Positions 5,593 to 43,744 of a DNA stretch of 64,000 nucleotides are shown here, in pieces (within the stretch, counting starts at the first letter, position 1; each line of letters opens with the position of its first letter). This DNA is from Candidatus Nomurabacteria bacterium (GTDB taxonomy: Bacteria > Patescibacteriota > Minisyncoccia > Phycocordibacterales > UBA9973), in contig CP064973.1 of assembly GCA_016699365.1 (NCBI GenBank), forward strand, positions 575,161 through 639,160, written 5' to 3'. Both the position numbers and the translations under genes were made by a program. Below the pieces are notes generated by a model. The model worked only from the letters and a program-made list of their open reading frames with translations. It was not told the origin of the DNA and did not search any database.

Positions 5593-6124
5593 ATTTCCCA
5601 AATATTCCAAACAAAACTTTTCCAGTCTCTGAATCTATTGTATCAGTCGTAAAAATCATGATCTCTGTCGTAAGGCCGAGATCTTTTTTTATATTTTCAA
5701 ACAAATGCTCAAGGGGGTAGGGAGATATCCAAGCACTATTTTTTAGACATACAAAACCTGCTTTCTTTAGCAGATAGCGCAAACTATCGCGTTCATTTTT
5801 TCTAGACTCAGGTAGATCCAGAAGTATAATTCTCCACTTACCATCCCATTTTGGGTCTAGGATTGCGCTGTCACTTTCTAGCTTTAGACTATTGGCCTTC
5901 TTTTTTCCTTCATTTGTTAGACGTGTGTATTTAGTTCTGTCTGAAGACAGATTCTCCACCAGACCTGCCTCTTTTAGGCCCTTCAGAGAGCGATTTATAG
6001 CGTATACAGGCACTTTTGTGGCAGGGCGAGGGGAAACACGCTCACTGAGCTCAGATAGCGAAATAACTGGCTTTTCAGACAGTATTTTGAGTATTTTCCT
6101 TGAGAAATCTGGCTTTTTTTGCAT
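5591..6124 (-). CDS. PaaX-like winged-helix transcriptional regulator
   Basis: 177 aa; N-terminal wHTH, and a C-terminal ...WDGKWRIILLDLPESRKNERDSLRYLLKKAGFVCLKNSAWISP motif typical of the PaaX C-terminal domain; divergent from dnaK. Confidence 0.55.
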   Translation of the reverse strand: MQKKPDFSRKILKILSEKPVISLSELSERVSPRPATKVPVYAINRSLKGLKEAGLVENLSSDRTKYTRLTNEGKKKANSLKLESDSAILDPKWDGKWRIILLDLPESRKNERDSLRYLLKKAGFVCLKNSAWISPYPLEHLFENIKKDLGLTTEIMIFTTDTIDSETGKVLFGIFGK

Positions 6125-9977: not shown

Positions 9978-10013
9978 AATCCCCAAAAATTAGTTTGGGG
10001 ATTTTATTATTTT
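9978..10013 (+). terminator. rho-independent terminator
   Basis: AATCCCC-AAAAATTAGTTT-GGGGATT followed by TTATTATTTT. Confidence 0.6.
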
Positions 10014-10036
10014 CAAGTGTTATACTATCTCCACAA

Positions 10037-11697: not shown

Positions 11698-12395
11698 TGA
11701 AATCCTTCTACAAACAAATCATAATCGATTGGATTTAAACTTTTTATTTTAGCTACAAGTTCGTTGCAAGCCGATTCTTGGCCGCATATGTATATATCTG
11801 AATTATTGAAATCATATTTGCCTATATGATCTTGAATATAGCCTTTTGTGCAATTTGAATTTTCTTCAGGTCTTGAAACTGTAAAGTTGAATTCTATTTT
11901 GTTATTTTGGTGAGTTAGATTTTCGAAATAGTCTTTATACAAGACTTCGTTTTCAAATTTACTTCCAGTAAATATAGTGAGTTTTTCCAGATCGAGCATA
12001 TCTTTGAAATATTCTACAAGTCCCTTTGTCACACCAGCACCAATACCAAATCCAAATAAATATACTTTTTTCCGATTCATTTTATCTACAGTGTTTAGTC
12101 CTAGTGGTCCCATTATTTCGAGTTCTTCTCCAGTCATATCCTTGGTCCAAAAGAGGGTAGACATCTTACCATTTGGAGTAAGTCGCATGGCTATTTTTAT
12201 TATGTCTTTTTCTTCTGGACTAGAAGCTATCGAGTACGCTCTGCGAATTTTCTGGCCATCGATATTTATAAACAGATTTACAAAAGCTCCAGCCGAGAAA
12301 TCTAGGGGTTCACTGAGCTTTATCTCAACTTCTTTTGCAGTCTTCGATAAGTCGACAATTTTATTTATTTTTCCTTTTATTATTTTTATTTTCAT
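11694..12395 (-). CDS. FAD/NAD(P)-binding oxidoreductase (ferredoxin-NADP reductase-like module)
   Basis: 233 aa; RAYSIAS (RxYS FAD-binding motif), GPLG, Gly-rich LFGFGIGAGV NAD(P) site; its ATG overlaps the stop of the upstream membrane gene (ATGA at 12392-12395). Confidence 0.75.
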   Translation of the reverse strand: MKIKIIKGKINKIVDLSKTAKEVEIKLSEPLDFSAGAFVNLFINIDGQKIRRAYSIASSPEEKDIIKIAMRLTPNGKMSTLFWTKDMTGEELEIMGPLGLNTVDKMNRKKVYLFGFGIGAGVTKGLVEYFKDMLDLEKLTIFTGSKFENEVLYKDYFENLTHQNNKIEFNFTVSRPEENSNCTKGYIQDHIGKYDFNNSDIYICGQESACNELVAKIKSLNPIDYDLFVEGFH

Positions 12396-13012
12396 ATAGT
12401 TTTTACTATTAGCGCTTTTCGCTCTCGATTTTTAAAGTAGGCCAGTGCAGTAAATATCGTTACGAGGATCATCGATACTGCTAGGTCTATGTGTCCATAA
12501 GTTAGAAATACATATAGCGAACTCGAGTAGAAGTATACATAAGAGAGCTTCTGAATTCTTTTCCAATTATCACCGAGTAACCTTTTAGAAAGACTATTTG
12601 ATGTTATGAGCAAGATTATAGCGGTTATATCTCCCATATGAGCAAGTACAGCATAATTCACCATTGACCAATATTCTAGCGTAAAAAAGCTGTTTAGGTA
12701 TCCGCCTGGGTCCATGATTATTTTAGCAAATATAAACGATACGATTATAGATGCAGACAGAACACCCGCCCCTTTTCGCAGTATCACAAGTGGTCTGATC
12801 CATTTATTTTCCATAAATATATCTGCCATTGGTCTCACAATCATCACGAAAAATAGAGCTACGTGTGAGATGTTGTATATATTTGTGATGTCGGTTGCGT
12901 TGAATGTATTTGGCGAAAACACCAAGACAAGTGGCAAGATCATCATCGCCAGTATAGATATCCCGAGTAATATTTCCTGTGTGTATTTTATTGTAGTTAA
13001 GTATTTTTTCAT
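12392..13012 (-). CDS. ferric-reductase-like transmembrane protein (MsrQ/YedZ-type heme-binding domain)
   Basis: 206 aa, about six TM helices with conserved His in the TM segments; 4-nt overlaps with both neighbours suggest translational coupling. Confidence 0.6.
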   Translation of the reverse strand: MKKYLTTIKYTQEILLGISILAMMILPLVLVFSPNTFNATDITNIYNISHVALFFVMIVRPMADIFMENKWIRPLVILRKGAGVLSASIIVSFIFAKIIMDPGGYLNSFFTLEYWSMVNYAVLAHMGDITAIILLITSNSLSKRLLGDNWKRIQKLSYVYFYSSSLYVFLTYGHIDLAVSMILVTIFTALAYFKNRERKALIVKTI

Positions 13013-13917
13013 ATATTTTTATTTACAACCCCAGATTCTGTTATGGTTATATATTTTATTTTTGATTCTGCAAATAGTACGTTCACATCTTTTATAGGTA
13101 AGCTCAAGAACACTTTTGCGAACGCTTCTGCGCTAGATCCACTTTCGTGTATTATGCTTGCTGAGATTGTTCCACTGTCAGTATTGCCGGTTCCAGACTT
13201 GTTTAGTATGTGATTTATTTTATTGCCAGATCTATCCCAAACCCTTTTGTATGTTCCACTTGTGGCTAGGCTTTGGTTGAATATTTCTACGGGTTCATTT
13301 TTATCTGGATTGACTGGATTGTAGATACTGAAGATAAATTTTCTATTGTGTTCGTCTAGACCTCGTGTGCATATATCTCCGCCTAGATTTACAATCACTC
13401 CACTTACACTTTCATTTTCAATTATATTTTGGGCTATTTTTTCGGCGAGATATCCCTTCAAGACTCCTCCGAAATCCAATTTTTGGCAATCAGCTAGAGT
13501 GATTTTATTATTCTCTATATCGATTTTTACACTATCAAAATCAATGTCATAACATAGATCTATCGGGGTGTCTTGTGGTGTAAGCTCTGTATATGTTTTG
13601 TCATACCCGAAACGCTCAATCTGTACGAGCGGATTAAATATTCCTTTCGTTTTTTTATAAAGCATAAATGCTTCACTTATAACTTCCATAAACTCTCTAG
13701 AAACATTCATCTCTTTTTTTTCATTCAGCTTTGATAGTTCACTGTCAGGTAGGAATCTAGAGAATTTTTTTTCATATTCTTTTATTGTGTTTAGCGCCTG
13801 CACTCCAAGTACACCTGCTTTTACCTCATCATTAGATATGATTGATATAAAGCACTCTGTGCCCATCGCTTTCATCTTAAATTCATATTCTTTATTCATA
13901 ATGCAACTATAAAACAA
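13009..13917 (-). CDS. apbE: FAD:protein FMN transferase ApbE
   Basis: KAMGTE, DFGGVLKGY, LVNLGGD and TSGTYKR motifs; the true start may be an internal Met (MKAMGT...). Confidence 0.85.
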   Translation of the reverse strand: MFYSCIMNKEYEFKMKAMGTECFISIISNDEVKAGVLGVQALNTIKEYEKKFSRFLPDSELSKLNEKKEMNVSREFMEVISEAFMLYKKTKGIFNPLVQIERFGYDKTYTELTPQDTPIDLCYDIDFDSVKIDIENNKITLADCQKLDFGGVLKGYLAEKIAQNIIENESVSGVIVNLGGDICTRGLDEHNRKFIFSIYNPVNPDKNEPVEIFNQSLATSGTYKRVWDRSGNKINHILNKSGTGNTDSGTISASIIHESGSSAEAFAKVFLSLPIKDVNVLFAESKIKYITITESGVVNKNI

Positions 13918-13956
13918 AGAGATGAATAATAAATGAACGGGGTGTAGAATATAGAT

Positions 13957-14625
13957 ATGAGAATACTTTTAGTCGAAGACAACGAAAAATTGGCCAAATA
14001 TACCAAGCAAATGCTCTACGAGGAGGGGTATTCTGTAGATGTGATTTCTGATGGTATTGCCGGTGAACGTATGGCAAGATCCGGTTCGCATGATCTCTTA
14101 ATCCTCGATATTATGCTTCCGTCCAAGGATGGCATAGCAGTTTGCAAAAGTCTCCGCGAGAGTGATGTAAATTTGCCCATAATCATGATCACAGCAAGGG
14201 GAGAGGTAGATGACAGGGTCTTAGGTCTCGATAGTGGTGCCGATGACTATCTAGTGAAGCCGTTTGAGATGAAAGAGCTTTTAGCCAGAATTCGCGCACT
14301 ACTCCGTAGGCCAGAATCAAAGATTAGTGAGACTCTCTCTATTCAAGATATAACCCTGGATAGTACAAAGCATCAGGTTTTCAAAAAAGGTGTTCTGATC
14401 CCTCTAACACTAAAAGAATATTCGATTCTCGAATATCTTATGCGCAATGTCGATACAGTAGTTTCGCGTGAGCAACTTCTCGAACATTGTTGGGATTTTG
14501 CATATAGTGCATTTAGTAACATAACAGATGTTTATATAAAAAGATTGCGTGAAAAATTTAAAGATACAGATGAAAAATATATTAAAACAATTCGAGGTGT
14601 CGGGTATGTCTTCAACTCCAAGTAA
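13957..14625 (+). CDS. OmpR-family two-component response regulator
   Basis: Receiver domain (LLILDIMLPSKDG, phospho-acceptor Asp) plus a winged-helix output domain. Confidence 0.9.
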   Translation: MRILLVEDNEKLAKYTKQMLYEEGYSVDVISDGIAGERMARSGSHDLLILDIMLPSKDGIAVCKSLRESDVNLPIIMITARGEVDDRVLGLDSGADDYLVKPFEMKELLARIRALLRRPESKISETLSIQDITLDSTKHQVFKKGVLIPLTLKEYSILEYLMRNVDTVVSREQLLEHCWDFAYSAFSNITDVYIKRLREKFKDTDEKYIKTIRGVGYVFNSK

Positions 14626-15610
14626 TTTTAAAAAAGCCGTATTGAAACTGACTGTGTATTACACGTTGGGTGTTTTTGCTGTGATCCTAGTCTTTAACTT
14701 GATAGTTTATAGTCTTTTTTCTAATACTTTATATAAACAGTACGAAGAAGAGCGCGAGAATTCTTCTTATGAACACGAAGATGATTTTGAAGAGGGGGTT
14801 GAATCCAGAGTGGAAACAACCCAAGGCAACCTACTGGGTATATTTGTAGTTTCAGATGCAATCATACTTCTTTTGACAGTGTTGATTTCATATTTATTAT
14901 CCAAACGCACACTTGCACCTCTGGAGATTGCATATAAAAAACAAGCACGCTTTGTTGCAGATGCAGCGCACGAACTTCGCACACCGCTTGCTGTTATGCG
15001 TGCCGGTGGAGAGGTTATATTGCGGAGCGACAGAAAAGTCTCTGAATATCAAAAATATATACAGGAGAATCTTGGCGAAGTAGAGAGACTGACAAATATT
15101 TCAAATGACCTTTTGATTTTGGCTCGTAGTGACAATCAAAACAAGAAACTTCTTGCAAAGATTAGCCTTTCAGATAATTTGAATGCCGTTATAAATATCA
15201 TGGAGGTATATGCAAAAAGTAAAAACATAACGCTAAATTCAAAGATTGATGGAGATATCTTTATAAATGGCAAAAAAGACGACATCACAAGACTGGTTAT
15301 GAACTTGGTCAAAAATGCTATTGATTACAATAAGATTGGTGGCTCTGTAGATATAGGGCTCAATAAAAGTCACAATACTGCACACATAATCGTCAAAGAT
15401 AATGGAATAGGAATCAAAAAAGAAGCACTACCTTATATATTTGATCGTTTTTACAAGGCTGATAGCGCAAGATCAGAAGATTCTAATTCTGGGTCTGGGC
15501 TAGGGCTCGCTATAGCAAGAGATATAGTACTCTCTCACGGTGGTGAGATAAGAGTAGAAAGTATTTTCGGAGAAGGGACTACATTCTCCATAGATTTGCC
15601 TTGTGTATAA
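14606..15610 (+). CDS. sensor histidine kinase
   Basis: Start at MSSTPSNFKK, overlapping the regulator gene by 20 nt; two TM helices, H-box HELRTPL, N-box and G2-box GSGLGLAI. Confidence 0.85.
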   Translation: MSSTPSNFKKAVLKLTVYYTLGVFAVILVFNLIVYSLFSNTLYKQYEEERENSSYEHEDDFEEGVESRVETTQGNLLGIFVVSDAIILLLTVLISYLLSKRTLAPLEIAYKKQARFVADAAHELRTPLAVMRAGGEVILRSDRKVSEYQKYIQENLGEVERLTNISNDLLILARSDNQNKKLLAKISLSDNLNAVINIMEVYAKSKNITLNSKIDGDIFINGKKDDITRLVMNLVKNAIDYNKIGGSVDIGLNKSHNTAHIIVKDNGIGIKKEALPYIFDRFYKADSARSEDSNSGSGLGLAIARDIVLSHGGEIRVESIFGEGTTFSIDLPCV

Positions 15611-15686
15611 AAGGCATCCTCGTTCATTTTCTATTCATAATCTTTTTGTAGAGTATAAGCATTAGTAATAATTAACTAATAAATAT

Positions 15687-15857
15687 ATGGCACAATATGT
15701 ATGTTTAGATTGCGGATGGATTTACTCTGAGGTAGACGGTGATCCATCTCGCGGAATAGCTCCAGGTACAAAATGGGAAGAGCTCCCAGATGATTTCAAA
15801 TGCGCAGATTGCAGTGTACGAAAAAGCGATACACACATGTGGCAGAAAATTGATTAA
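15687..15857 (+). CDS. rubredoxin
   Basis: 56 aa, MAQYVCLDCGWIYSEVDGDPSRGIAPGTKWEELPDDFKCADCSVRK... with the two CxxC pairs and GTKWEELPDD core; below the ORF cutoff. Confidence 0.85.
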   Translation: MAQYVCLDCGWIYSEVDGDPSRGIAPGTKWEELPDDFKCADCSVRKSDTHMWQKID

Positions 15858-15864
15858 AAAATAT

Positions 15865-16242
15865 ATGAAAAAAGATTTTAGAAATGTATTTATAACAACT
15901 TGCATGATAACCTGGACTTTGTTTTGGGGAGGTCTGTCATATCACAGGTATGTACTGGTGCAAGCTGAAGCACAGCATATAGCACAAGTTGCCGAAGACA
16001 ATAGAATTGTCTTACTTGCAATACAACAAGAAAATATCCGTAAACAACAACTTGCCGCTGAGCAAAAAAGACTAGCGGCTGCGCAAGTTATCGCCAAGGC
16101 ACAGACGGTTTCTGCCATACCTACACAAGTTTATATTCCTCCACAACCTCAAGTTGCCCAGGTGTCACAGCCAGTGTACACACCACCAACTCCAGTCCAA
16201 GTCGTAGTAACCAAACCTTCACGTCAGTCACGTGCAAGTTAA
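15865..16242 (+). CDS. hypothetical membrane-anchored protein (coiled coil and Pro/Gln-rich tail)
   Basis: Start at MKKDFRNV, downstream of the rubredoxin stop; one TM helix, then QQENIRKQQLAAEQKRLAAAQ and PPQPQVAQVSQP. Confidence 0.45.
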   Translation: MKKDFRNVFITTCMITWTLFWGGLSYHRYVLVQAEAQHIAQVAEDNRIVLLAIQQENIRKQQLAAEQKRLAAAQVIAKAQTVSAIPTQVYIPPQPQVAQVSQPVYTPPTPVQVVVTKPSRQSRAS

Positions 16243-16263
16243 TTAATCTAATAAATAATAATT

Positions 16264-16620
16264 ATGAAAAAATACCTAATACCCACATTCGCATTTCTCT
16301 TGTTCTCAGGCTTTGTCGCATATGCGACAGTGAAAACACAATCAGTGCTTGATACAGTCGAGCCAGAGCAGGAGATTGCTCAAGTCGAGAAAGCTTTTGA
16401 TGTTTCAGACACACTAGCTATCTCCGATGTATTTGAAGATCCAAAGCCGATTGCAGAAAACATTCCAGTTGTATCTGTTGTCACGCAGGCTCCAGCACAA
16501 AGTACAGAAACTATCAGTGATCCTGTACCAACAGAGTATGTGTATAGCTATGAAGATGGACATGATCAAGATGAGGATTATGGCGGAGATGACGAAGAAG
16601 ACGAAGGCGATGATGATTAA
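16264..16620 (+). CDS. hypothetical secreted/anchored protein with a poly-acidic C-terminus
   Basis: Signal/anchor MKKYLIPTFAFLLFSGFVAYA; C-terminus EDGHDQDEDYGGDDEEDEGDDD. Confidence 0.5.
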   Translation: MKKYLIPTFAFLLFSGFVAYATVKTQSVLDTVEPEQEIAQVEKAFDVSDTLAISDVFEDPKPIAENIPVVSVVTQAPAQSTETISDPVPTEYVYSYEDGHDQDEDYGGDDEEDEGDDD

Positions 16621-16646
16621 AAATCTTCATTTGCTATAATATTCGC

Positions 16647-17315: not shown

Positions 17316-17755
17316 TGGAATTCATATCTACATTTATAACCCTCGCGGGGTTTGTCATCGGACTTGGAGCTGTGACTGTTATTGACTTGCATGGATTTCT
17401 TGGACGTAAATCTCCGTACTGGACAGAAGCAACTATTCGTACCCACAAAGTTACCAAGCCACTTATTTGGATCGGTATACTTCTCGTAGCAATCGGAACT
17501 TTCATATCTGGTGTAAACGAACTTATTTCATCTCTAGATTTTGCTTTTAGACTTGGAATTATATTTCTCATGATTTTAAATGGAAGCTTCTTGTCTTTTG
17601 TAATTTCTCCGGAGCTTTTGAAGAGAGAAAAAGATGGGAGAGCTAGTGAGATACTACCAAGTACAATGCAGAACAAAATTGTTGTTAGTTTTTTTGTATC
17701 TTTTATTCTCTGGTGGGGACTGTTGGCGTATGTTGTAAATAGCCTAATAAAATAA
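17316..17755 (+). CDS. hypothetical integral membrane protein
   Basis: Start at MEFISTF; four predicted TM helices. Confidence 0.5.
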
Positions 17756-17756
17756 A

Positions 17757-18158
17757 ATGCCCCAGAAACCAGCTGTTAAAAAAACTAAAAAAGTTACTGC
17801 AAAGCGTCTCGATGAAACTCTGTGGGAATATTGCAAAGAAGAAGCGATCACAAAGATGGGGAAGTTTTCTGCTCGTGCGATGCAATATGCTGTCTCCTTG
17901 TATAAGAAAAGAGGTGGACGATATGAAGGTAAGAAGTCGAAGGATAATTCTCTGGTGAAATGGACAAAAGAAGATTGGGGGTATGTTGCAGAACCCAAAA
18001 GGTCTAGATATCTACCCAAAAAGGCACGAGAGCATATGACTGTCGGAGAGAAGATTGCGACCGATAGAGCCAAGAATGCAGGAACAAAGGCTGGTTCGCA
18101 GTGGGTGAAGCAACCAAAAAAGATTGCCAAGAAAACTGCGAAGTATAGAATAAAATAA
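17757..18158 (+). CDS. hypothetical basic protein
   Basis: 133 aa, Lys-rich; conserved-looking stretch RGGRYEGKKSKDNSLVKWTKEDWGY. Confidence 0.5.
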   Translation: MPQKPAVKKTKKVTAKRLDETLWEYCKEEAITKMGKFSARAMQYAVSLYKKRGGRYEGKKSKDNSLVKWTKEDWGYVAEPKRSRYLPKKAREHMTVGEKIATDRAKNAGTKAGSQWVKQPKKIAKKTAKYRIK

Positions 18159-18217
18159 TTCGTTTTAAAAAAGGTTTTGTTATAATAAAAGTATTAGAAA
18201 ATTAATAAAAATTTCAC

Positions 18218-18370
18218 ATGTCTAAATCAAAAAAACTTTTGGCATTTGCAGCGTTCATATCTTTTGCGTTTGCTATCTACTTGTGGTTCATGGCGGATAG
18301 AGAATCTGCATTGTTTGTCGGACTCTGGGTTCCATCTATCCTATCTTTGTCCAACTTTTTCCGAAACTAA
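18218..18370 (+). CDS. small hydrophobic peptide (50 aa), followed by a second 28-aa hydrophobic ORF at 18371-18457
   Basis: MSKSKKLLAFAAFISFAFAIYLWF... single TM helix; the second ORF MSELVIFVVGFIVSAVVLSALVYEYKKS starts at the next base; both sit before a strong terminator. Confidence 0.3.
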   Translation: MSKSKKLLAFAAFISFAFAIYLWFMADRESALFVGLWVPSILSLSNFFRN

Positions 18371-18471
18371 ATGTCTGAGCTTGTGATATTTGTAGTCGGA
18401 TTCATAGTGTCGGCAGTTGTCCTATCTGCCTTAGTTTACGAATACAAGAAATCCTAATTAATAAAATAAAA

Positions 18472-18500
18472 AGCCCTCCTATCCTGGAGGGCTTTTGTTT
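18472..18500. terminator. bidirectional rho-independent terminator
   Basis: AGCCCTCC-TATCCT-GGAGGGCT followed by TTTGTTT; the convergent minus-strand gene ends at 18499. Confidence 0.65.
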
Positions 18501-19017
18501 AATTTATATTTTCAATAATTATCTTGTGATTATCAAAGAAAATTGTATTTTTCTCGTACCACAACACACTTGGACAAGGTGATTTATTTACTTTTGATCT
18601 ATATCCTGCGATCAGGTCTCTGCTTGTAACAACCTGATATCCATTTTCTATTGCGCTTTTTGCGGTTTCGTAAACACAAAAGCCTGCATTTACTCCCATG
18701 ATTAGAATATTTTTAGTCTTGTGCGCTACGAGAATCTTATTCAATTCCGTCTTATAAAAAGCGTCATCGTATTTTTTATTTAGACAATACACACGAGCTT
18801 CTGGATTACCCTTCACAGCTTCCTGTATTTTTGGGGCTGTATTTCCATACCCTATGTATTCAAATATAACTATAGGAACTTTATTTGATATACAAAACTT
18901 TAAAACGGATACTTGAGGGGGGATTAGCTTGAGTTTGTTTGGTTTTTTGAATAGAAAATCTTTTTGCATATCTATCAACACAACACATATGTTGGCTAGA
19001 TTAATTTTTTTACCCAT
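18499..19017 (-). CDS. isochorismatase-family cysteine hydrolase (nicotinamidase-like)
   Basis: VLIDMQKDF N-terminal motif and GVNAGFCV catalytic Cys region. Confidence 0.8.
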   Translation of the reverse strand: MGKKINLANICVVLIDMQKDFLFKKPNKLKLIPPQVSVLKFCISNKVPIVIFEYIGYGNTAPKIQEAVKGNPEARVYCLNKKYDDAFYKTELNKILVAHKTKNILIMGVNAGFCVYETAKSAIENGYQVVTSRDLIAGYRSKVNKSPCPSVLWYEKNTIFFDNHKIIIENIN

Positions 19018-19090
19018 TGGTACTTATTTCTAGGAACTCTATTACAGCTTTTATACGTTGTCAAATATATATTTTTTGGTGATTATTTAG

Positions 19091-19119
19091 TTGACTTATA
19101 TGCTTTTATGTGATATAAT
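19091..19119 (+). promoter_or_regulatory. consensus sigma70 promoter
   Basis: TTGACT (19091-19096), 17-nt spacer, TATAAT (19114-19119), about 40 nt upstream of the 19158 ATG. Confidence 0.5.
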
Positions 19120-19157
19120 ACTAGGCATAAGTTCACTAAAACTAAATAAAAACGAAT

Positions 19158-19994
19158 ATGAATATAATTGTCGTGTTTGGCGGAGCTGACTTCGAAGAAG
19201 CAGCTGCAAGGTTGATTGCAAAAAAACATGGACTCGTACTTGCCACCGCGACGGTGGATGGAGTTCCTTGTCATGCAGGCAACGCATACAAAGCAAACGG
19301 CTTTGTAGTAGACGAAGGCAAGGAGAGCAACGAAGACATAGTTATAGTTTTCGAATGCTCAGAAAAGGTTGCAGGAAATCGCGAGATCATAATGGTCTGT
19401 GACCATCACAACCCTGGCGATCCCGGCTTCGGGTTTCCTCCGGAAAATTTCTGGAGAGGTAGTTCTATCGGCCAATTGTGCAAATATCTTAACGAAGAAC
19501 CTACAGAGGAACTTCTTATGGTAGCTGCCTCTGATCACTGTTTTCCTGCTGCATATGCAGGAAAATGTCCGGGGATTAATCCGGAGGAGTTTGCGAAATT
19601 TCGAATCTCGCAGAAAGTTGCATTTTATGCAACAGATGTTCGTAATGCGCATAAATCAACTCCGTCGGAGCTGGAAGAAATTATCCAGATGACAATGCAG
19701 AAAATTTCTAAGGCTCCTATTATCGAACCTGGACTGGTTGATATGCGAGGACAGGGCTTCGTTGAAGAACTGCCTGAGTCGGCAGTGAGATTGGGACTGG
19801 CCTACATCTCGGAGATACAAGACCGTGATAGGAATCAGGTTCCTACAGGTAACATGAAAATTGTTATCGGCGGATGTACTGATCCTGAGATGGTCGTTTC
19901 CTTCATGGAATGGGCAAATGCTCTTCCTAACAAGGTCGGTAACGCATACGGAGATCCTATCCGTGGCTTTGCCGGAATTGTTGTGAAGCCTTAA
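19158..19994 (+). CDS. hypothetical protein of unknown function, compositionally atypical (high GC)
   Basis: 278 aa; GC clearly above its neighbours by eye, about 47% against a high-30s background; motif MVCDHHNPGDPGFGFP; flanked by a perfect promoter and a strong terminator. Confidence 0.6.
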   Translation: MNIIVVFGGADFEEAAARLIAKKHGLVLATATVDGVPCHAGNAYKANGFVVDEGKESNEDIVIVFECSEKVAGNREIIMVCDHHNPGDPGFGFPPENFWRGSSIGQLCKYLNEEPTEELLMVAASDHCFPAAYAGKCPGINPEEFAKFRISQKVAFYATDVRNAHKSTPSELEEIIQMTMQKISKAPIIEPGLVDMRGQGFVEELPESAVRLGLAYISEIQDRDRNQVPTGNMKIVIGGCTDPEMVVSFMEWANALPNKVGNAYGDPIRGFAGIVVKP

Positions 19995-20002
19995 ATTTTT
20001 TC

Positions 20003-20031
20003 AAAACCCTCCGATTGCGGAGGGTTTTTAA
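20003..20031 (+). terminator. rho-independent terminator
   Basis: AAACCCTCCG-ATT-GCGGAGGGTTT followed by TTAAT. Confidence 0.6.
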
Positions 20032-20057
20032 TATGCTTGTGTAGACAAATTATCTCC

Positions 20058-20345
20058 CAAAGAAAAAAGGCTGTTCCGTAGAACAGCCTTCTAAAACTCC
20101 TATTTATAAGTCTCCGGATGGTGCCGGCAGATTTCTGCGAAATCTTCTCCAATTCCGCATACTTGGGACACCCGATACGTATCCCGCAACCTCAAGCAAG
20201 TGAGGACTTGCTTGATTTAGACTATTTCTCCGTTCGCTCGCCACTACTGGGAGATAAAGAGCTTTTTGTAAAGATAACACATAAATCTGGATAGTCAAAC
20301 AACCCTACCGCCTCGTATCCTCGAGGCGGTTTCTCCACCCAAAAT
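20058..20345 (-). ncRNA. 23S rRNA domain-I-like fragment with its own intrinsic terminator (rRNA-derived ncRNA or pseudogene)
   Basis: The minus strand reads ...UCUCCCAGUAGUGGCGAGCGAACGGAGA..., near-identical to the universal 23S segment CCCAGUAGCGGCGAGCGAACGGGGA. Flanking stretches resemble the adjacent 23S helices but other universal cores are diverged or missing. It ends in the hairpin AGGCUGUUC-UACG-GAACAGCCU plus UUUUUU, at 20058-20090 on the minus strand. Confidence 0.5.
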
Positions 20346-20389
20346 ACCATTGTTTTGAGAGGGGATTTGTGGGATGATAAATAAATATA

Positions 20390-23373
20390 ATGGATAAATA
20401 CATACAAAGCATATCTAAAAAATACTTAGATACTCAAACAAGTGAAATGGGATATCGTACGGATTTTGAAAATTTTCTCGAAACTATTTTTTCAAAAGAG
20501 CAAAAATACCATATTCATCATGATGCAAAAGCTGTGGGTGGAAATAAGCCTGATTTCGTTGTACTTAAAAACCAAATACCAGTTTTGTATATTGAAAATA
20601 AAGATATTGGTATTGATTTAGATAAAATAGAGAAGTCTAATCAGATGGATAGATATTTTGGATATGATAACCTTATTTTGACTGACCAAATAGAATTTAG
20701 ATTTTATCGAAACGGAGAAAAATATGATGAATCAATTAAAATCGCAACATACGATAAATCAAATAGAACGATTAATCCTATCCCAGAAAATTTTACACTT
20801 CTAGAAAAAACTATTATAGATTTCACTCTTTCTCACAAAGAACCAATTAAACGAGGGAAGCGTCTTGCTCAAATTATGGGTGGAAAAGCTCAACGCATTC
20901 GTGACAATGTTTGTGACATGCTTACTTCTAATAATGAAAAATATGCAGAACTTTTAAATATAAAAAAAGTAGTTACTGAAAATCTTGTTTCGAATTTAAA
21001 AGATGAAGACTTTGCTGATATGTACGCGCAAACCCTTGTATATGGACTTTTTGCGGCTCGGTATAATGATAAGACAAATGATACTTTTTCTCGTGCTGAA
21101 GCTCGAGATTTGGTTCCAAAAACAAACCCATTCCTACATTCTTTTTTTGATCACATCGCAGGAGCGTCTTTTCCTGATAGATTGCGGTTTATTGTAGACG
21201 AACTTTGCGAAGTTTTTTCTCATGCAGATATTCAAAAAATTCTTCATGATTTTTATGGAAAAGAAAAAGATAATAAAGATCCAATAATTCATTTTTATGA
21301 AGATTTCTTGAAAGAATATGATTCAAAAAAGAAGATGGAAATGGGAGTTTTTTATACTCCTCGTCAAGTTGTGAAGTTTATTGTGCGTTCTGTTGATGAA
21401 ATTTTGAAAAAAGAATTTGGTCTTGCTAAAGGTCTTGCTGACGCAGAGAAAATTAAAATAAATAAAAAAGAAATCTATCAAGCTCAAAAAAGAACAAAGG
21501 CTGAAGAAAAGAAAGATGGTTCAATAATAGAAGTTCAAAAAGAATATCACAAGGTACAGGTTTTGGATATAGCGACAGGAACAGGAACATTTTTAAACGA
21601 AGTTATTGAACATATTCACAAGAGCTTTATAGGTCAAGAAGGGCGTTGGGAGAGTTATGTTAAAGAAAACCTTTTACCTCGCCTTCACGGTTTTGAGCTT
21701 ATGATGGCTTCATACACAATTGCGCATTTAAAGCTTGGGATGACTTTATTTGATTCTGGGGTTACTAATTTAAACCAACGTTTGGGTGTTTATTTGACAA
21801 ATACACTCGATGAGCCAAAAGACTATTCAAATCAAGGTTCACTTTTTGGATTTATGGATGCTATTGCTGAAGAGTCAAAAAGTGCTTCAAGGGTAAAATC
21901 TGAATATCCAATAATGTGTGTAGTAGGAAATCCGCCGTATTCCATTAGTTCTAGCAACAAGGGTGAATATATTACTGACTTAATTAATGTATATAAAACA
22001 AAACTAAAAGAAAAAAATATACAACCAATTTCAGATGATTATATTAAATTTATTAGATTTGCTGAAAACCTAATAGAAAAAAATAACTCCGGAGTTGTTG
22101 CAATGATTACAAATAATTCTTTTATTGACGGGATTATTCATAGGCAAATGAGAAAACATTTACTCGAGACTTTTAATACCATTTACATACTTAATTTAAG
22201 TCCTAGGAATCATAAAGAAGATCAAAATGTTTTTGATATCAAACAAGGTGTTTCAATAAATATTTTTGTTAAAAACTCGAAAAAAGACAAAGTTTTAGGA
22301 GATGTTTTTTATGCAGAGATAGCTGCGAAAAGAGAAGAGAAGTTTCGGGTATTGGATGATAATAATATAAAGTATGAAAAGTTAGACTATTCAGATCCAT
22401 ATTATTTTTTTGTTCCAAAGGATTTCTCAAATATTAAGGAATACAGCAAAGGATTTATTTTATCGGACATTTTTATGCATCAAAATGCTGGATGTGCTAC
22501 TGGTAAAGATGATCTATTGGTAAATTTTAACAAAAAGATTTAACCGATAAATTAAACAATAAAAATATTATATTTGATGAATCTGATATCGTTGAATATA
22601 ATTATAGGATATTTGATAGAAGATACTTTGTGTATGATAATAAACTTATACAAAGGTTACGGGAAAAAATAATGAAGCATTTTAAAAATGATAATATTGG
22701 ATTAATTTCAACAAAAATATTATCAAGTGACTCATACAAACACTCTTTCTTAACTAACCTTGTGGGAGATAGATGTCTTATATCAAATAAGGGTAAAGAG
22801 GCAAATTATTATTTTCCTTTATATCTTTACACAGATCAAAATGAAAAAATACCAAACTTGAATAAAGAAATTTGGAATAAGATAAATGAATTAGTGGGGG
22901 AAACTAAACCAGAAAATATTTTGGATTATATTTATGCTGTCTTACATTCGTCTACATATCGTAACGAGTATAAAGAATTCTTAAAAATTGATTTTCCTAG
23001 AATTCCATATCCAGAAAACAAAGAAGAATTTTGGAAACTTGTTCCACTTGGCACAAAACTGCGTGATTTGCATCTTATGACTGCTCCAGAATGCAATAAA
23101 CTTATTACTACTTACGGTATTAAAGGCAGTGATACTGTTGAAAAAATTATATATAAAAATGAAAAGGTGTATATAAACGAAACTCAATACTTCGGGGGTG
23201 TCCCAGAAGTTGCATGGAATTTCTATATAGGAGGTTATCAACCCGCTCAAAAATGGTTAAAAGACCGAAAAGGACGAACTCTTACTAATTCTGATATTGA
23301 GCATTATCAGAAAATTATTGTAGTTTTGGTGGAGACAGATAAGATTATGAAGAAAATAGATCAGTTATTATAG
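20390..23373 (+). CDS. MmeI-like Type IIL restriction-modification enzyme (PD-ExK nuclease, gamma-class N6-adenine methyltransferase, target-recognition C-terminus), interrupted by an apparent -1 frameshift
   Basis: N-terminal nuclease motif KPDFVV...IENKD; methyltransferase motifs GVFYTPRQVV, LDIATGTGTF (motif I), VVGNPPYS (motif IV); C-terminal GGYQPAQKWLKDRKGR. The ORFs 20390-22543 and 22630-23373 fuse into about 965 aa if the A5 run at 22532-22536 is A6 (...NFNKKDLTDKLNNKNIIFDESD...). Confidence 0.75.
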
Positions 23374-23376
23374 AAT

Positions 23377-23955
23377 ATGTCTATGAATACTAAAGACAGT
23401 AAAATTGTATATGTGTTCATTGACGCATCCAATCTATGGCAGTCACAAAAAGTGAAAGGTAGGATGTTTGATTTTGAGAAATTAAAAATATTCTTAAAAG
23501 AAAAATTTAATGCTAAGGAGCTCCAGATATTTTACTATACCGCTTATCCGAAAGAAGGGACACGAGAACAAAGTCAAGATGGAAAACATAAATTTTACAC
23601 ATATCTTAAAAAGGGACTTGGTTTTATTGTGCGTAAAAAGGAATTAAAAAGAATTGTTCAGCATAGTGATTTGGGTGATTCAATACAGGAAAAAGGAAAT
23701 ATGGATGTTGAAATGACCATTGATGCGATTCATCATTGTAAAAAGTACGACTCCGCGGTTCTTTTTACGGGAGATTCTGATTTTCTCGCTTTAGTTAATT
23801 ACTTGAGAAACGGTGATAAAAAAGTATATATTTTTTCTTCAAAAAACAATGTGTCTCAAGAATTAAGAACAGGGAGTGACGGTTATTTTGATGTTTTAAA
23901 TATTAGTCAGGATATTTGGGGTAGAGATCTTAAATATAAGGAAAATAAGACCTAA
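23377..23955 (+). CDS. NYN-domain (PIN-like) nuclease
   Basis: IVYVFIDASNLW... and LFTGDSDF acidic-residue motifs characteristic of the NYN/LabA family; 192 aa. Confidence 0.7.
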   Translation: MSMNTKDSKIVYVFIDASNLWQSQKVKGRMFDFEKLKIFLKEKFNAKELQIFYYTAYPKEGTREQSQDGKHKFYTYLKKGLGFIVRKKELKRIVQHSDLGDSIQEKGNMDVEMTIDAIHHCKKYDSAVLFTGDSDFLALVNYLRNGDKKVYIFSSKNNVSQELRTGSDGYFDVLNISQDIWGRDLKYKENKT

Positions 23956-24075
23956 AAAACAAAGTAGCCCTCCTTTCGGAGGGCTACCCTTGGATGTAAT
24001 ACCCTTAAAGTTTATGGTAAACCTTAAGACAAACTGAGTATATCAAATCTATTCAAAAAGTCAAAGTTTTCCACA

Positions 24076-24150
24076 CCTTTACAAGAATGCCACTCGTGGC
24101 ATTCTTGTAAAGGGCTAGTGCAAAATGGGCTATGCCCATTTTGCACTAGC
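24076..24150. repeat. two abutting perfect palindromic hairpins (17-bp stems)
   Basis: CCTTTACAAGAATGCCA-CTCG-TGGCATTCTTGTAAAGG at 24076-24113, then GCTAGTGCAAAATGGGC-TAT-GCCCATTTTGCACTAGC at 24114-24150; GC-rich, with no T-run on either side. Confidence 0.6.
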
Positions 24151-24160
24151 GGAGTTGAGA

Positions 24161-24185
24161 TTGTCAATATTGACAAAATAGTCAA
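24161..24185. promoter_or_regulatory. overlapping inverted repeats, operator-like
   Basis: Perfect 16-nt palindrome TTGTCAATATTGACAA at 24161-24176, overlapping TTGAC-N6-GTCAA at 24170-24185; lies about 100 nt upstream of the DUF1801 gene pair. Confidence 0.4.
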
Positions 24186-24284
24186 ATATCCACAAAATAA
24201 TTTTGAAAAATTAAACTTGAACGATCTGTTAGAAGCTTTAGAGATTATCATTAGATATATTATATCACAGAATAAAAAATAAAT

Positions 24285-24701
24285 ATGCAAAAAGTAATTC
24301 AGAAAATAAATATTGATACTCGTAAATATAACAAAGCACTACCATTACGTGACAAAAGAATTTGTAATGTTTTAGCTTTAATCATAATGGCCAATTTACC
24401 TAAAGCCGAGAACAAGATATGGCATGGGGCGCCGGTATGGTTTCTCGATGGCAATCCTATTGTTGGATACGACAAGTTGAAAGATTGTGTGAGACTGCTT
24501 TTCTGGAGCGGACAGGGGTTTGGTGAGAAAGATTTGCAAAAAAGTGGAAGTTTCAAGGCTTCTGAAATCAGATATACAGATGTATCAGAGATCAATGAAA
24601 AAGATCTCAAGCGCTGGCTCAAAAAGGCCAAGGAGATACAGTGGGACTATAAAAACATTGTGAAAAGAAAAGGAGTTTTGAAGAAACTGAAATTTAAATA
24701 A
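24285..24701 (+). CDS. DUF1801 (YdhG/YdeI-like) domain protein
   Basis: 138 aa; ...HGAPVWFLDGNPIVGY...KDCVRLLFW... matches the DUF1801 pattern as I recall it. Confidence 0.55.
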   Translation: MQKVIQKINIDTRKYNKALPLRDKRICNVLALIIMANLPKAENKIWHGAPVWFLDGNPIVGYDKLKDCVRLLFWSGQGFGEKDLQKSGSFKASEIRYTDVSEINEKDLKRWLKKAKEIQWDYKNIVKRKGVLKKLKFK

Positions 24702-24707
24702 TAATTT

Positions 24708-25067
24708 ATGAAATCATACAAAAATATAACTGAATATATAAAAGATATTCCAAAAGAGCACCGAGGCTATGTTAAAACCTTGCGGAAACTTGCAAAGAAG
24801 CTTGTGCCAAAAGGCGAGGAAGCTATCCGTTATGGTATGCCGACTATGCAGATCGATGGCAAGAATTTGCTCCACTACGCAGCCATGAAAGCCCACTTTG
24901 GGTTCTATCCTGCACCATCAGGGATCATCGCATTCAAAAGCGAGCTCGATAAAGCAGGTATAGAGTATTCCAAGGGTTGCATCAGATTCCCGTACAACAA
25001 ACCACTGCCAGTCTCGCTCATAACCAAGATTATTAAGTTCCGCTTGAAAGAAGAGAAAAGTAGATAA
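24708..25067 (+). CDS. DUF1801 (YdhG-like) domain protein, paralogue of the preceding gene
   Basis: 119 aa; ...YGMPTMQIDGKNLLHYAAMKAHFGFYP... Confidence 0.55.
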   Translation: MKSYKNITEYIKDIPKEHRGYVKTLRKLAKKLVPKGEEAIRYGMPTMQIDGKNLLHYAAMKAHFGFYPAPSGIIAFKSELDKAGIEYSKGCIRFPYNKPLPVSLITKIIKFRLKEEKSR

Positions 25068-26226: not shown

Positions 26227-26277
26227 ATATTACTCGAGTATTTTGAATAAAATAAAATAACCCTTTCGGGTTATTGG

Positions 26278-26913
26278 TTATTGAAATAGTTCTCTGATCA
26301 AATTAAAGAAACCTTTTTTCTTTTGTTCTGATCCTGATTTCTTTTCCTTTGGTTTGAATTTACGCTCTTTAATAATCGAGTCGTGTACAAACTCTATTTC
26401 TTCGTCTGACAAGTATCCGTATCTCAGTGCGAGTCCTGGAAAAAGATTGCTATGATTTCTCCTTGCTCTTACAAAGTTGGCCGAGAAGCCAAGTGCCATA
26501 GCCGTGACATCCACAGCTTTCTCTATGTGTTTTATATCTTTGTAATTGTGATAGTACAAATATATATGAGAGAGCTCGTGGCTTATAGTAGTTACGAATA
26601 CATCAAAGTCTAAAGTTATGGTATTGGATATCTCTATGATAAACACGTGATCAAGGAGCTTATTTTTTCCTTCAATAAATATTAAAGGTACGAGTACATG
26701 CGCCGGCTTGTTCAGGTCTTTTTTAGAGACAACCTTTATCTTGTGGGGGATTTGCATAACATTTTTGATCTCCTGTATTGCCCACGCATACTCCCTCTGT
26801 TTAAAGAAAATTTCGGCAGTTTTGAGACTTACGGGTTTCTTGGTTACGTTTTGTAAAGTATAAAGGTACTTCATGATTTCGTTCATGGAAAGAATATTTT
26901 TACTATTGTACAA
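26278..26913 (-). CDS. putative zinc metallopeptidase (HExxH)
   Basis: 211 aa; ISHELSHIYLYYHN contains HExxH; lysine-rich C-terminus. Confidence 0.45.
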   Translation of the reverse strand: MYNSKNILSMNEIMKYLYTLQNVTKKPVSLKTAEIFFKQREYAWAIQEIKNVMQIPHKIKVVSKKDLNKPAHVLVPLIFIEGKNKLLDHVFIIEISNTITLDFDVFVTTISHELSHIYLYYHNYKDIKHIEKAVDVTAMALGFSANFVRARRNHSNLFPGLALRYGYLSDEEIEFVHDSIIKERKFKPKEKKSGSEQKKKGFFNLIRELFQ

Positions 26914-26975
26914 TAAATTATAAATATAGTCAATTATTAATAATAAACGGTAAGTTTCCTTGAGCCATATTATTT

Positions 26976-43708: not shown

Positions 43709-43744
43709 AAATATCCCGCAATTGCGGGATATTTTTATTTTATA
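43708..43744. terminator. bidirectional terminator
   Basis: ATATCCCGC-AATT-GCGGGATAT followed by TTTTATTTT. Confidence 0.65.

What the first reader, a model, noticed from the sequence alone, without database searches (positions are those of the whole stretch)
19083..24200. Mixed-composition accessory island: high-GC orphan gene, 23S-like fragment, MmeI-like Type IIL RM enzyme, NYN nuclease, perfect palindromes
Between the isochorismatase gene and the DUF1801 pair, composition swings sharply. A 278-aa gene at about 47% GC has a perfect TTGACT-17-TATAAT promoter and a strong terminator. A transcribed 23S-like fragment and a very AT-rich 2.9-kb single-polypeptide RM gene follow. The RM gene shows a PD-ExK nuclease, NPPY methyltransferase and MmeI-like C-terminus; a NYN nuclease starts 3 nt after it. 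The block ends in GC-rich perfect palindromes. This combination suggests a horizontally acquired defence island. An MmeI-family enzyme paired with a NYN nuclease is not a combination I know to be described.
Basis: partly seen in the sequence, partly recalled or inferred. Interest (0 to 1): 0.7.

Follow-up and report, generated by a model that had tools for sequence, protein, structure and literature searches.

The report
Defence-gene swap slot in a tiny bacterium
This stretch is a recombination hot spot where related candidate-phyla bacteria keep different phage-defence genes. Here it holds a known kind of one-protein restriction-modification enzyme, followed by an RNA-cutting (NYN) gene that always travels with a small structured RNA absent from Rfam and the papers searched.

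Summary
Most sub-observations are real, but the interpretation needs revision. The window comes from a Ca. Nomurabacteria genome.

**Locus.** Close relatives (backbone 92-98% identical) share the flanks and carry alternative defence cassettes in this slot. These are the same RM-NYN pair, a Type II RM, or an Nhi/AbiO-like helicase. It is therefore a defence hot spot, not one strain-specific island.

**RM gene.** It is DrdV-like Type IIL with a Type ISP-like target-recognition domain, and it is not MmeI-family. A 1-nt deletion in an A-run splits it. This is probably an assembly error, because a 99%-conserved helicase gene nearby is broken in the same way.

**278-aa gene.** It is not an orphan. 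It has about 100 homologues and a DHH phosphoesterase fold, and it replaced another ORF between a resident promoter and terminator.

**23S-like fragment.** It is real, lies on the minus strand, and has its own promoter-like and terminator-like sites. It is 95-97% conserved in close relatives.

**NYN.** About 20% of close NYN homologues lie beside RM genes of four types.

**Unexpected.** Nearly all close NYN loci examined carry a convergent ~75-nt sRNA with strong covariation. Its promoter often has a DnaA-box-like motif just upstream.

The parts
18499..19017 (-). Isochorismatase-family gene on the left edge of the hypervariable zone
   Evidence: Pfam PF00857 at 69 bits. It is only 72% nt / 62% aa identical to relatives whose backbone is 92-98% identical.
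19091..19119 (+). Resident sigma-70-like promoter (TTGACT-17-TATAAT, extended -10)
   Evidence: The -35 and the TGTGATAT part are homologous in L101, so the promoter belongs to the backbone and not to the incoming gene.
19158..19994 (+). 278-aa DHH-family phosphoesterase-like gene, swapped in for the 244-aa gene of all five close relatives
   Evidence: About 100 homologues exist in candidate-phyla bacteria, in varied contexts. DHH is invariant at residues 82-84. AF2 pLDDT is 95.9. The best Foldseek matches are NrN (9lqb; E 1.6e-7, TM 0.52-0.57), DhhP and RecJ. The swap junctions are shown.
20000..20031 (+). Terminator hairpin shared with relatives
   Evidence: In the relatives the hairpin lies inside the 3' end of the 244-aa gene.
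20058..20298 (-). Candidate small RNA unit containing a degenerate 23S rRNA domain-I fragment (core 20106-20255). It has a promoter-like site at 20298-20271 and a terminator at 20092-20065.
   Evidence: Rfam RF02541 at 51.3 bits, model positions 235-470. Promoter and terminator scan. The element is 95-97% identical in L099-L103, against 80-88% at nearby 4-fold sites.
20350..20379 (+). Conserved junction motif (GTTGTTTTGWGAGGGGATTTGTGGGATGAT) immediately before the first gene of whichever cassette occupies the slot
   Evidence: The motif is present before the ATG in the window, L100, L101, L105 and L107, although the cassettes differ.
20390..23373 (+). DrdV-like single-chain Type IIL/IIG RM gene, split by a 1-nt deletion in the A-run at 22532-22536
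   Evidence: PADLOC REase_MTase_IIG scores 818 bits. Pfam gives N6_Mtase and Type_ISP_C at 250 bits. The best PDB match is DrdV 7lo5 at E 1.4e-33. The corrected junction aligns seamlessly with intact homologues.
23377..23955 (+). NYN (LabA-like, COG1432-type) predicted RNase
   Evidence: Pfam PF01936 at 84 bits. PDB 2qip matches with the acidic motifs aligned. The metagenome scan gave 246 related loci.
23954..24064 (-). Convergent ~75-nt structured sRNA (23954-24033) with its promoter (-10 ends at 24037, -35 at 24059-24064). It shares the hairpin 23961-23990 with the 3' end of the NYN gene.
   Evidence: The element is conserved downstream of NYN in nearly all 80 loci. Of 22 pairs, 11 are compensatory; 96.6% of cells pair against 89% in shuffles, with 0 of 500 shuffles as good. 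Pairing is 96.6% on the minus strand and 82.4% on the plus strand. The covariance model scores 94.6 bits. No Rfam family matches.
24067..24075 (.). DnaA-box-like 9-mer (TTTTCCACA, one mismatch) abutting the sRNA -35
   Evidence: 28 of 68 loci carry such a box with at most 1 mismatch, 14 of them exact. Shuffles give 0.41.
24076..24150 (.). Two adjacent perfect palindromes (18-nt and 17-nt arms) at the left edge of a window-specific insertion
   Evidence: They are absent from L101, where the alignment ends at 24075. No related copies occur in any other locus.
24285..25067 (+). Two DUF1801 genes. The first (24285-24701) is window-specific. The second (24708-25067) is shared with L101 and L105.
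   Evidence: Pfam hits. The second gene is 88% aa identical to L101. Homology with L100 resumes at 25065.

Best explanation
The region 18.5-25.1 kb is a recombination hot spot (a 'defence slot') in a Ca. Nomurabacteria/Paceibacteria chromosome. It is not a single acquired island.

**Shown**
- Conserved flanks bracket a cassette that differs between close relatives and begins right after a conserved 30-nt junction motif.
- In this genome the cassette has three parts: (i) a DrdV-like single-chain Type IIL RM gene; (ii) a NYN RNase gene 3 nt downstream, which carries its own convergent structured sRNA; (iii) DUF1801 genes.
- Upstream, a separate ORF-for-ORF swap put a DHH-phosphoesterase-like gene between a resident promoter and terminator.
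- Between the two swap zones sits a conserved non-coding element containing a degenerate 23S domain-I fragment.

**Inferred**
- By analogy with DrdV, the RM enzyme recognises an asymmetric site, methylates one adenine, and cuts at a fixed distance when several unmodified sites are brought together.
- Its target-recognition domain has been exchanged relative to the allele in relative L101.
- The frameshift is most likely a homopolymer assembly error, so the gene is probably intact in vivo.
- The NYN-sRNA pair is a self-contained mobile module. It is most likely an RNase held in check or directed by its convergent sRNA, and it repeatedly lodges in or beside RM operons as a second-line, abortive-infection-like layer. 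I put the defence role at about 0.45.
For: **Hot spot**
- The backbone is 92-98% nt identical to L100 and L101.
- The slot holds RM-NYN-DUF1801 in L101 and RM-232aa-NYN in L107-109. L100 has a Type II MTase and REase (379 and 458 bits). L105 and L106 have an Nhi/AbiO-like helicase.
- The junction motif is shown.

**RM identity**.

**Frameshift**
- The corrected frame aligns seamlessly with homologues. Correction raises Type_ISP_C from 222 to 251 bits.
- The PIF1 helicase gene, 99% identical to intact orthologues, is broken by a T5->T4 deletion at 10695.

**Mosaic RM**: residues 150-500 are 82-96% identical to L101, while residues 650-800 (TRD) are 18-30% identical.

**NYN next to RM**
- Adjacency occurs in 2 of 10 RM loci.
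- 16 of 80 NYN loci have an RM gene within two ORFs on the same strand. These cover DrdV-like, true MmeI, Type I (HsdS-NYN-HsdR, HsdM-NYN-x-HsdS) and Mrr-ResIII.

**sRNA**.
Against: - The NYN protein is 68-86% identical across many contexts, including next to rpoBC, dnaG, nrdD and tgt. That is more typical of a housekeeping gene than of a fast-evolving defence gene.
- The one tested NYN protein embedded in a defence system (HEC-09) gave no phage protection. The match of this NYN to HEC-09 is weak at 23.5 bits.
- No transcription, methylation or toxicity data exist.
- The frameshift is present in the deposited assembly, where NCBI annotates a 717-aa fragment. It could be real.
- No recombinase, tRNA or direct repeats mark the slot, so the exchange mechanism is unknown.
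Confidence: 0.7

Rival explanations
1. This is one horizontally acquired, strain-specific defence island spanning 19.1-24.2 kb.
For: Composition is extreme: the 278-aa gene is at z +2.8 and the RM at z -2.1/-2.4. The closest homologues of the 278-aa gene and of the RM sit in unrelated contexts.
Against: RM-NYN occupies the same position in L101 and L107-109. The 380-bp element in the middle is backbone. The promoter and terminator of the 278-aa gene are resident. The right border is 25064. The window holds no tRNA, and no direct repeats or integrase were found in the region examined.
Confidence: 0.08
2. The NYN-sRNA pair is a housekeeping RNA-processing or regulatory module of candidate-phyla bacteria. 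Its position next to RM genes only reflects that both sit in recombination-permissive places, with no functional coupling.
For: Protein conservation is very high across contexts, and neighbours include rpoBC, dnaG, nrdD, tgt and PPDK. A DnaA-box-like motif at the sRNA promoter suggests cell-cycle control. Bacterial NYN genes have been linked to tRNA/rRNA maturation by gene neighbourhood (PMC5499597).
Against: 20% of loci have an RM gene within two ORFs, always on the same strand, for four unrelated RM types. Several are embedded inside Type I operons. Spacing to the RM is tight, a 3-nt gap or an 8-nt overlap.
Confidence: 0.4
3. The RM gene is a genuine pseudogene, and the cassette is decaying.
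For: The frameshift is in the public assembly. RM genes are often inactivated or phase-varied at homopolymers (general knowledge).
Against: Both halves keep full-length similarity with no further stops or frameshifts. A second, highly conserved gene has the same type of homopolymer deletion. A run of five A is short for phase variation.
Confidence: 0.25
4. The 23S-like element is a neutral relic of an rRNA gene fragment. It looks conserved only because this segment was recently exchanged among the close relatives.
For: - The bit density is low (51 bits over 150 nt), with a 92-nt internal deletion.
- The core is absent from the more distant relatives L105-L109.
- Recombination junctions lie on both sides.
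- L008 has a different, also degenerate 23S fragment.
Against: - The element is 95-97% identical, where neighbouring 4-fold sites are 80-86%.
- The minus-strand promoter hexamers and the terminator are invariant.
- The few helix substitutions are A-U<->G-U.
- The deletion neatly caps a helix.
Confidence: 0.45

Closest known systems
[quoted passage not shown]
   Same: Both are about 1000 aa with an N-terminal PD-ExK nuclease, a helical connector, a gamma-class N6-adenine MTase (NPPY) and a C-terminal TRD of the Type ISP kind. phmmer gives E 1.4e-33. The architecture is as described in bioRxiv 10.1101/2021.01.06.425610.
   Different: Sequence matches are limited to the MTase and TRD segments. 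The ORF is interrupted in this assembly, and the recognition sequence is unknown.
MmeI family (Type IIL; Pfam MmeI_N/hel/Mtase/TRD/C)
   Same: Both are single-chain nuclease-MTase-TRD enzymes. There is a weak MmeI_Mtase hit of 30.6 bits.
   Different: MmeI_N, MmeI_hel, MmeI_TRD and MmeI_C give no hits, and MmeI is not among the PDB matches. True MmeI enzymes do occur next to NYN in other contigs such as L082.
Type ISP enzymes LlaGI / LlaBIII
   Same: The MTase and C-terminal specificity domains are shared: Type_ISP_C at 250 bits, 4xqk at E 1e-31 and 5ffj at E 1e-29.
   Different: This protein has no helicase or translocase domain and is about 600 aa shorter.
Genes embedded in DNA-modification defence systems ('guilt by embedding'; the NYN protein HEC-09; PrrC in Type Ic RM)
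   Same: A predicted RNase gene sits on the same strand inside or directly after RM genes.
   Different: [quoted passage not shown] Matelska et al. 2017 saw PIN-like genes only with Type I RM.
- Similarity to HEC-09 is weak.
- The NYN here has a dedicated convergent sRNA, which neither paper read here mentions.
Type I toxin-antitoxin loci with convergent 3'-overlapping antisense RNA (e.g. txpA/RatA, bsrG/SR4; my own knowledge) and Type III ToxIN
   Same: A protein gene and a small structured RNA form a tight two-gene unit. Transcription is convergent and shares a bidirectional terminator.
   Different: The protein is a 192-aa NYN RNase, not a small membrane peptide. The RNA is single-copy and downstream, not tandem repeats upstream. 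Toxicity is untested.
NrN / NrnA-type DHH-DHHA1 phosphoesterases
   Same: The 278-aa protein has the same fold (Foldseek E 1.6e-7, TM 0.52-0.57) and an invariant DHH motif.
   Different: Identity is 14%. No Pfam, NCBIfam or PADLOC hit was found. The substrate is unknown.

Membership tests
MmeI family (Type IIL) | MmeI_N nuclease, MmeI_hel spacer, MmeI_TRD and MmeI_C domains | tested here: not met
   None was found at E<=1 in the frame-corrected 994-aa protein, and the C-terminus is Type_ISP_C at 250 bits. A true MmeI from L082 hits all five domains in the same library.
MmeI family (Type IIL) | MmeI-type methyltransferase domain | tested here: inconclusive
   PF20473 scores 30.6 bits against a cut-off of 27. 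It lies under a stronger N6_Mtase hit of 53 bits.
DrdV-like single-chain Type IIL / IIG RM | One polypeptide with an N-terminal PD-(D/E)xK nuclease, an NPPY N6A-MTase and a C-terminal TRD, and no helicase | tested here: met
   PADLOC REase_MTase_IIG scores 818 bits. The motifs are located. DrdV matches at E 1.4e-33. No helicase domains are found.
DrdV-like single-chain Type IIL / IIG RM | Uninterrupted reading frame | tested here: not met
   The frame changes at 22532-22545. This is likely a homopolymer assembly error, but that is unproven.
DrdV-like single-chain Type IIL / IIG RM | One-strand adenine methylation and cleavage at a fixed distance | not testable with these tools
   This needs a methylome or biochemistry.
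NYN domain (PF01936, LabA-like / COG1432) | Domain match above the curated threshold, with conserved acidic motifs | tested here: met
   The domain scores 84.3 bits against a cut-off of 24.2. GNMDVEMTIDAI and TGDSDF align with 2qip.
NYN domain (PF01936, LabA-like / COG1432) | Ribonuclease activity | not testable with these tools
   No assay was possible.
HEC-09 (PADLOC defence candidate, NYN) | Full-length profile match | tested here: inconclusive
   The match is 23.5 bits over residues 105-173 only.
Bacterial 23S rRNA gene (RF02541) | Complete ~2.9-kb gene | tested here: not met
   Only model positions 235-470 are present, with a 92-nt internal deletion, at 51.3 bits. There is no other rRNA or tRNA in the 64 kb.
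DHH/DHHA1 phosphoesterases | DHH motif and a two-domain fold | tested here: met
   D82-H83-H84, D11, D88 and D126-H127 are invariant. The fold matches NrN, DhhP and RecJ. No Pfam DHH hit was found.
Integrative genomic island | Integrase or recombinase, tRNA target, flanking direct repeats | tested here: not met
   The window has no tRNA. No recombinase domain occurs in the genes of the region. The borders are a junction motif and gene ends.
Type I / Type III toxin-antitoxin (for NYN + sRNA) | Small hydrophobic toxin (Type I), or tandem RNA repeats upstream of the toxin (Type III) | tested here: not met
   The protein is a 192-aa NYN, and the RNA is single-copy, downstream and convergent.
Type I / Type III toxin-antitoxin (for NYN + sRNA) | Toxicity of the protein neutralised by the RNA | not testable with these tools
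   This needs expression experiments.

The most novel reading that the evidence does not exclude
The NYN RNase gene and its convergent ~75-nt structured sRNA form a previously undescribed two-component module of candidate-phyla bacteria. The sRNA promoter often carries a DnaA box. The module would be an RNA-restrained or RNA-directed RNase that repeatedly embeds in RM operons of four types and acts as a back-up, abortive-infection-like layer. In the same locus, a 23S domain-I-derived small RNA is kept at the border of the defence slot.
Probability: 0.35. Interest if true: 0.75.

Novelty: new variant of a known kind. Interest (0 to 1): 0.55.

Why it matters
Defence systems of candidate-phyla (Patescibacteria) bacteria are poorly charted. 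This locus shows a precise, reusable defence slot with at least four alternative contents and a conserved junction motif.

It also ties a very widespread NYN RNase of unknown function to a dedicated structured sRNA, and frequently to RM systems. That gives a directly testable hypothesis for both the protein family and a new RNA family.

For annotation, it is a caution. The 'broken' RM gene and the 'orphan' label are probably artefacts, of assembly and of library coverage respectively.

Tried and rejected
- **Rfam sensitivity.** Searches of the whole window and of 5.5 kb missed the 23S fragment. Only a 411-nt search found it.
- **nhmmer.** E. coli 23S and 16S as queries detected only L008 and not the window fragment.
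- **23S motif hit in L040/L041.** A conserved-motif screen across 883 kb of loci gave an extra hit there. Rfam showed it to be chance.
- **23S fragment travelling with the 278-aa gene.** Rejected, because it is absent from that gene's other loci.
- **23S fragment travelling with the RM cassette.** Rejected, because L100 keeps the fragment with a different cassette. The L008 fragment shares only a universal 16-mer.
- **sRNA target search.** Duplex prediction of the sRNA linker against NYN mRNA gave a recurrent site at about +325, but only 7-8 bp. That is explained by conservation of both sequences, so it is not used as evidence.
- **Phage origin.** Scans of viral contigs found one 2.2-kb contig sharing a 21-nt motif but no NYN gene, and none with the 23S-like element.
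- **Palindromes as a repeat family.** No related copies occur in the window or the loci.
- **Tetranucleotide profile.** It is not unusual across the RM region.
- **Exact-protein look-up of the 278-aa protein.** It found no contig.
Full report
**Source and layout.** The 278-aa protein is identical to a hypothetical protein of a Candidatus Nomurabacteria bacterium on a 705-kb contig. Window GC is 36.6%. From left to right the finding contains:
- an isochorismatase gene (18499-19017, minus strand);
- a near-consensus promoter (19091-19119);
- a 278-aa ORF (19158-19994) with a terminator hairpin (20000-20031);
- a 395-bp non-coding stretch;
- two ORFs that together make an RM gene (20390-22543 and 22630-23373);
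- a NYN gene (23377-23955);
- hairpins and palindromes (23964-24150);
- two DUF1801 genes (24285-25067).

**Observation check.** Composition really swings. Among 76 genes of the window, the 278-aa gene has the highest GC (46.2%, z +2.8). The RM pieces have the lowest (30.5% and 29.6%, z -2.1 and -2.4), and NYN is at z -1.9. The promoter and terminator are as described.

The 23S-like fragment is real but lies on the minus strand at 20106-20255. It matches Rfam LSU_rRNA_bacteria model positions 235-470 at 51.3 bits (gathering score 50, E 1.4e-14), and a 92-nt segment is replaced by 5 nt. Larger searches missed it. The window holds no other rRNA or tRNA.

The palindromes are perfect, with 18-nt and 17-nt arms. 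They are only 44-53% GC and are unique in the window.

**The locus is a defence slot, not one island.** Homologues of the isochorismatase led to close relatives. L100 (GCA_018061905.1) and L101 (GCA_017991335.1) match the window at 92-98% nt identity across the backbone. That backbone runs HSP70, PMSR, PIF1 helicase, the 220-aa and 146-aa genes, rhodanese, TspO and on to HI0933. Four-fold degenerate sites are 88% identical overall.

L101 has the same order as the window: isochorismatase, a 244-aa gene, the same non-coding element, an intact 1039-aa RM gene, NYN and DUF1801. L100 shares the flanks, but its slot holds a Type II methyltransferase and restriction enzyme (PADLOC 379 and 458 bits). 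More distant relatives add two further states:
- L105/L106 (backbone about 80%) carry a MazG-like gene and an Nhi/AbiO-like helicase.
- L107-109 (backbone about 72%) carry RM, a 232-aa gene and NYN, followed by rhodanese.

Against L100, the variable segment in the window is 20379-25064. In every lineage the first cassette gene starts 7-16 nt after a conserved motif, GTTGTTTTGWGAGGGGATTTGTGGGATGAT (window 20350-20379). No integrase, tRNA or direct repeats were found. Even so, the locus is clearly a site of repeated exchange.

**The RM gene.** Inserting one A in the A-run at 22532-22536 gives a 994-aa protein.
- It matches the PADLOC Type IIG model at 818 bits.
- It carries N6_Mtase and Type_ISP_C; correction raises Type_ISP_C from 222 to 251 bits.
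- It has PD...ENK, FYTP, DIATGTGTF and NPPY motifs.
- Its closest solved relatives are DrdV (7lo5, E 1.4e-33) and the Type ISP enzymes LlaBIII and LlaGI. MmeI is not hit, and four of the five MmeI Pfam domains are absent.

DrdV is described as a 1029-aa single-chain Type IIL enzyme whose MTase and TRD resemble those of Type ISP enzymes. 'Type IIL' is therefore right and 'MmeI-like' is wrong. The family is very large: more than 7800 hits, typically 980-1040 aa and intact.

The corrected junction aligns without disturbance to homologues. In the same window, a PIF1 helicase gene that is 99% identical to intact 554-aa orthologues is broken by a T5->T4 deletion at 10695. Two single-base homopolymer deletions in otherwise conserved genes point to assembly error, although a real pseudogene is not excluded.

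Compared with L101, the RM is mosaic. Residues 150-500 are 82-96% identical. The nuclease domain is 36-78% identical, and the TRD region (residues 650-800) only 18-30%. This fits a specificity-domain exchange. The nearest overall homologue (79%) is in an unrelated contig, L008.

**NYN and its partners.** Among ten loci found through the RM protein, NYN follows the RM directly in two, the window and L013. The others carry DUF5677, T5orf172-ResIII, zeta toxin, RhuM or SocA-Panacea genes.

From the NYN side, a metagenome scan gave 246 loci, and the 80 kept are 68-86% identical. Sixteen of the 80 have an RM gene within two ORFs, always on the same strand:
- DrdV-like: L020, L023;
- true MmeI with all five domains: L021, L040, L041, L082;
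- Type I as HsdS-NYN-HsdR: L048, L050, L052;
- Type I as HsdM-NYN-x-HsdS: L083, L088, L092;
- HSDR_N_2/N6_Mtase proteins: L026, L027, L058;
- Mrr-ResIII: L074.

The remaining loci sit next to housekeeping genes.

On prior reports, Matelska et al. (PMC5499597) saw PIN-like nucleases with Type I RM but not with specificity-subunit-less Type II systems. Payne et al. (bioRxiv 10.1101/2024.01.29.577857) list a NYN protein (HEC-09) embedded in Hma systems, without detected protection. The pairing is therefore a variant of a known theme and not unprecedented.

**An unreported sRNA tied to NYN.** The 110-120 nt after the NYN stop codon are conserved in nearly all 80 loci, whatever the context. On the minus strand, the alignment of 68 distinct sequences shows the following:
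- conserved -35 and -10 hexamers (TTGACT and TATACT; window 24064-24037), separated by spacers of variable sequence;
- a 10-bp hairpin;
- an almost invariant single-stranded GGGUAUUACAUCCAAG;
- a 12-bp terminator hairpin followed by a U-tract.

Eleven of 22 pairs show compensatory changes. In total 96.6% of cells pair, against 89.0% in shuffles (0 of 500 reach the observed value) and 39-66% when the partner is slid. G-U pairs favour the minus strand, at 96.6% against 82.4%.

No Rfam family matches. A covariance model hits only next to NYN, at 94.6 bits for window 23954-24033. A DnaA-box-like 9-mer abuts the -35 in 28 of 68 loci, 14 of them exact, where shuffles give 0.41. In the window it is TTTTCCACA at 24067-24075. 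More divergent NYN genes (L013, L107) keep the same architecture with a different RNA sequence.

The RNA and the NYN mRNA converge on one hairpin. This arrangement recalls 3'-overlapping Type I toxin-antitoxin loci (my own knowledge), but the protein is an RNase and toxicity is untested.

**The 23S-like element.** The whole stretch 19998-20378 is 95-97% identical in L099-L103. This includes L100, which has a different cassette. Four-fold sites in the neighbouring genes are only 80-86% identical.

A minus-strand promoter-like site (TTGACT-16-TATCTT, 20298-20271) and a terminator (20092-20065) are invariant. The few helix substitutions are A-U to G-U. The core is missing in L105-L109. L008 has a different degenerate 23S fragment upstream of its RM, sharing only a universal 16-mer.

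I cannot decide between a functional rRNA-derived small RNA and a young relic homogenised by recombination.

**The 278-aa gene.** It has about 100 homologues of the same length in Peribacteria, Andersenbacteria and others, in unrelated contexts. It carries an invariant DHH motif. A confident model (pLDDT 95.9) best matches the SAM-AMP phosphodiesterase NrN, DhhP and RecJ.

In all five close relatives a 244-aa gene sits there instead. Homology includes the -35, the extended -10 and the terminator, so only the ORF was exchanged.

**Palindromes.** They begin exactly where homology with L101 ends (24075/24076). They head a window-specific insertion that carries the first DUF1801 gene. Their role is unknown. 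They have no U-tract and no relatives elsewhere.

**Verdict.** This is a real and well-organised defence hot spot. It holds a known type of RM enzyme that is probably intact. The most interesting elements are the NYN-sRNA module and the conserved non-coding elements at the slot border.

Noticed in passing
window 23954-24064 (minus strand): A ~75-nt structured sRNA with its own promoter converges on the 3' end of the NYN gene. It is conserved in nearly all 80 NYN loci, shows strong covariation, and has no Rfam family.
   Followed up: yes
window 24067-24075; alignment A2: A DnaA-box-like 9-mer lies directly upstream of the sRNA -35 in 28 of 68 loci (14 exact; 0.41 expected). It is also present at the divergent NYN loci L013 and L107.
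   Followed up: partly
window 10695 (ORFs 9995-10723 and 10720-11697): The PIF1-type helicase gene is split by a T5->T4 deletion. It is 99% identical to intact 554-aa orthologues, which suggests homopolymer assembly errors in this record.
   Followed up: yes
window 20350-20379: A 30-nt junction motif is conserved (89-94%) immediately before the first gene of the slot in all relatives, even where the backbone identity is about 72%. It could be an expression signal or an exchange site.
   Followed up: partly
L008 8789-9200: Another degenerate 23S 5'-domain fragment (71-80 bits) has promoter-like and terminator sequences. It lies upstream of the closest homologue (79%) of the window's RM gene, and a tRNA gene lies at 7636-7707.
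   Followed up: partly
window 11694-16628, 17741-18466, 26228-26957: These segments are window-specific insertions relative to L100 and L101. They include ApbE, a histidine kinase, DUF5872, and a 211-aa paralogue (35% identity) of the 244-aa gene that the relatives carry beside the slot.
   Followed up: no
L013 1-4306: In a Saccharibacteria contig, the RM-NYN pair sits directly after a tRNA gene and before a SAM riboswitch and metK. This looks like a tRNA-adjacent insertion.
   Followed up: no
window 43698-43745 and 5552-5596: Other long perfect palindromes (24-nt and 22-nt arms) with A/T-rich flanks are likely bidirectional terminators.
   Followed up: no
L104 1370-1395 (viral contig IMGVR_UViG_3300037661_000012): This contig shares a 21-nt stretch (AGGGTATTACATCCAAGGGCA) with the sRNA's invariant linker. 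It has no NYN gene, and its meaning is unknown.
   Followed up: no
window 46909-46937: A second exact TTGACT-N17-TATAAT site occurs in the window.
   Followed up: no
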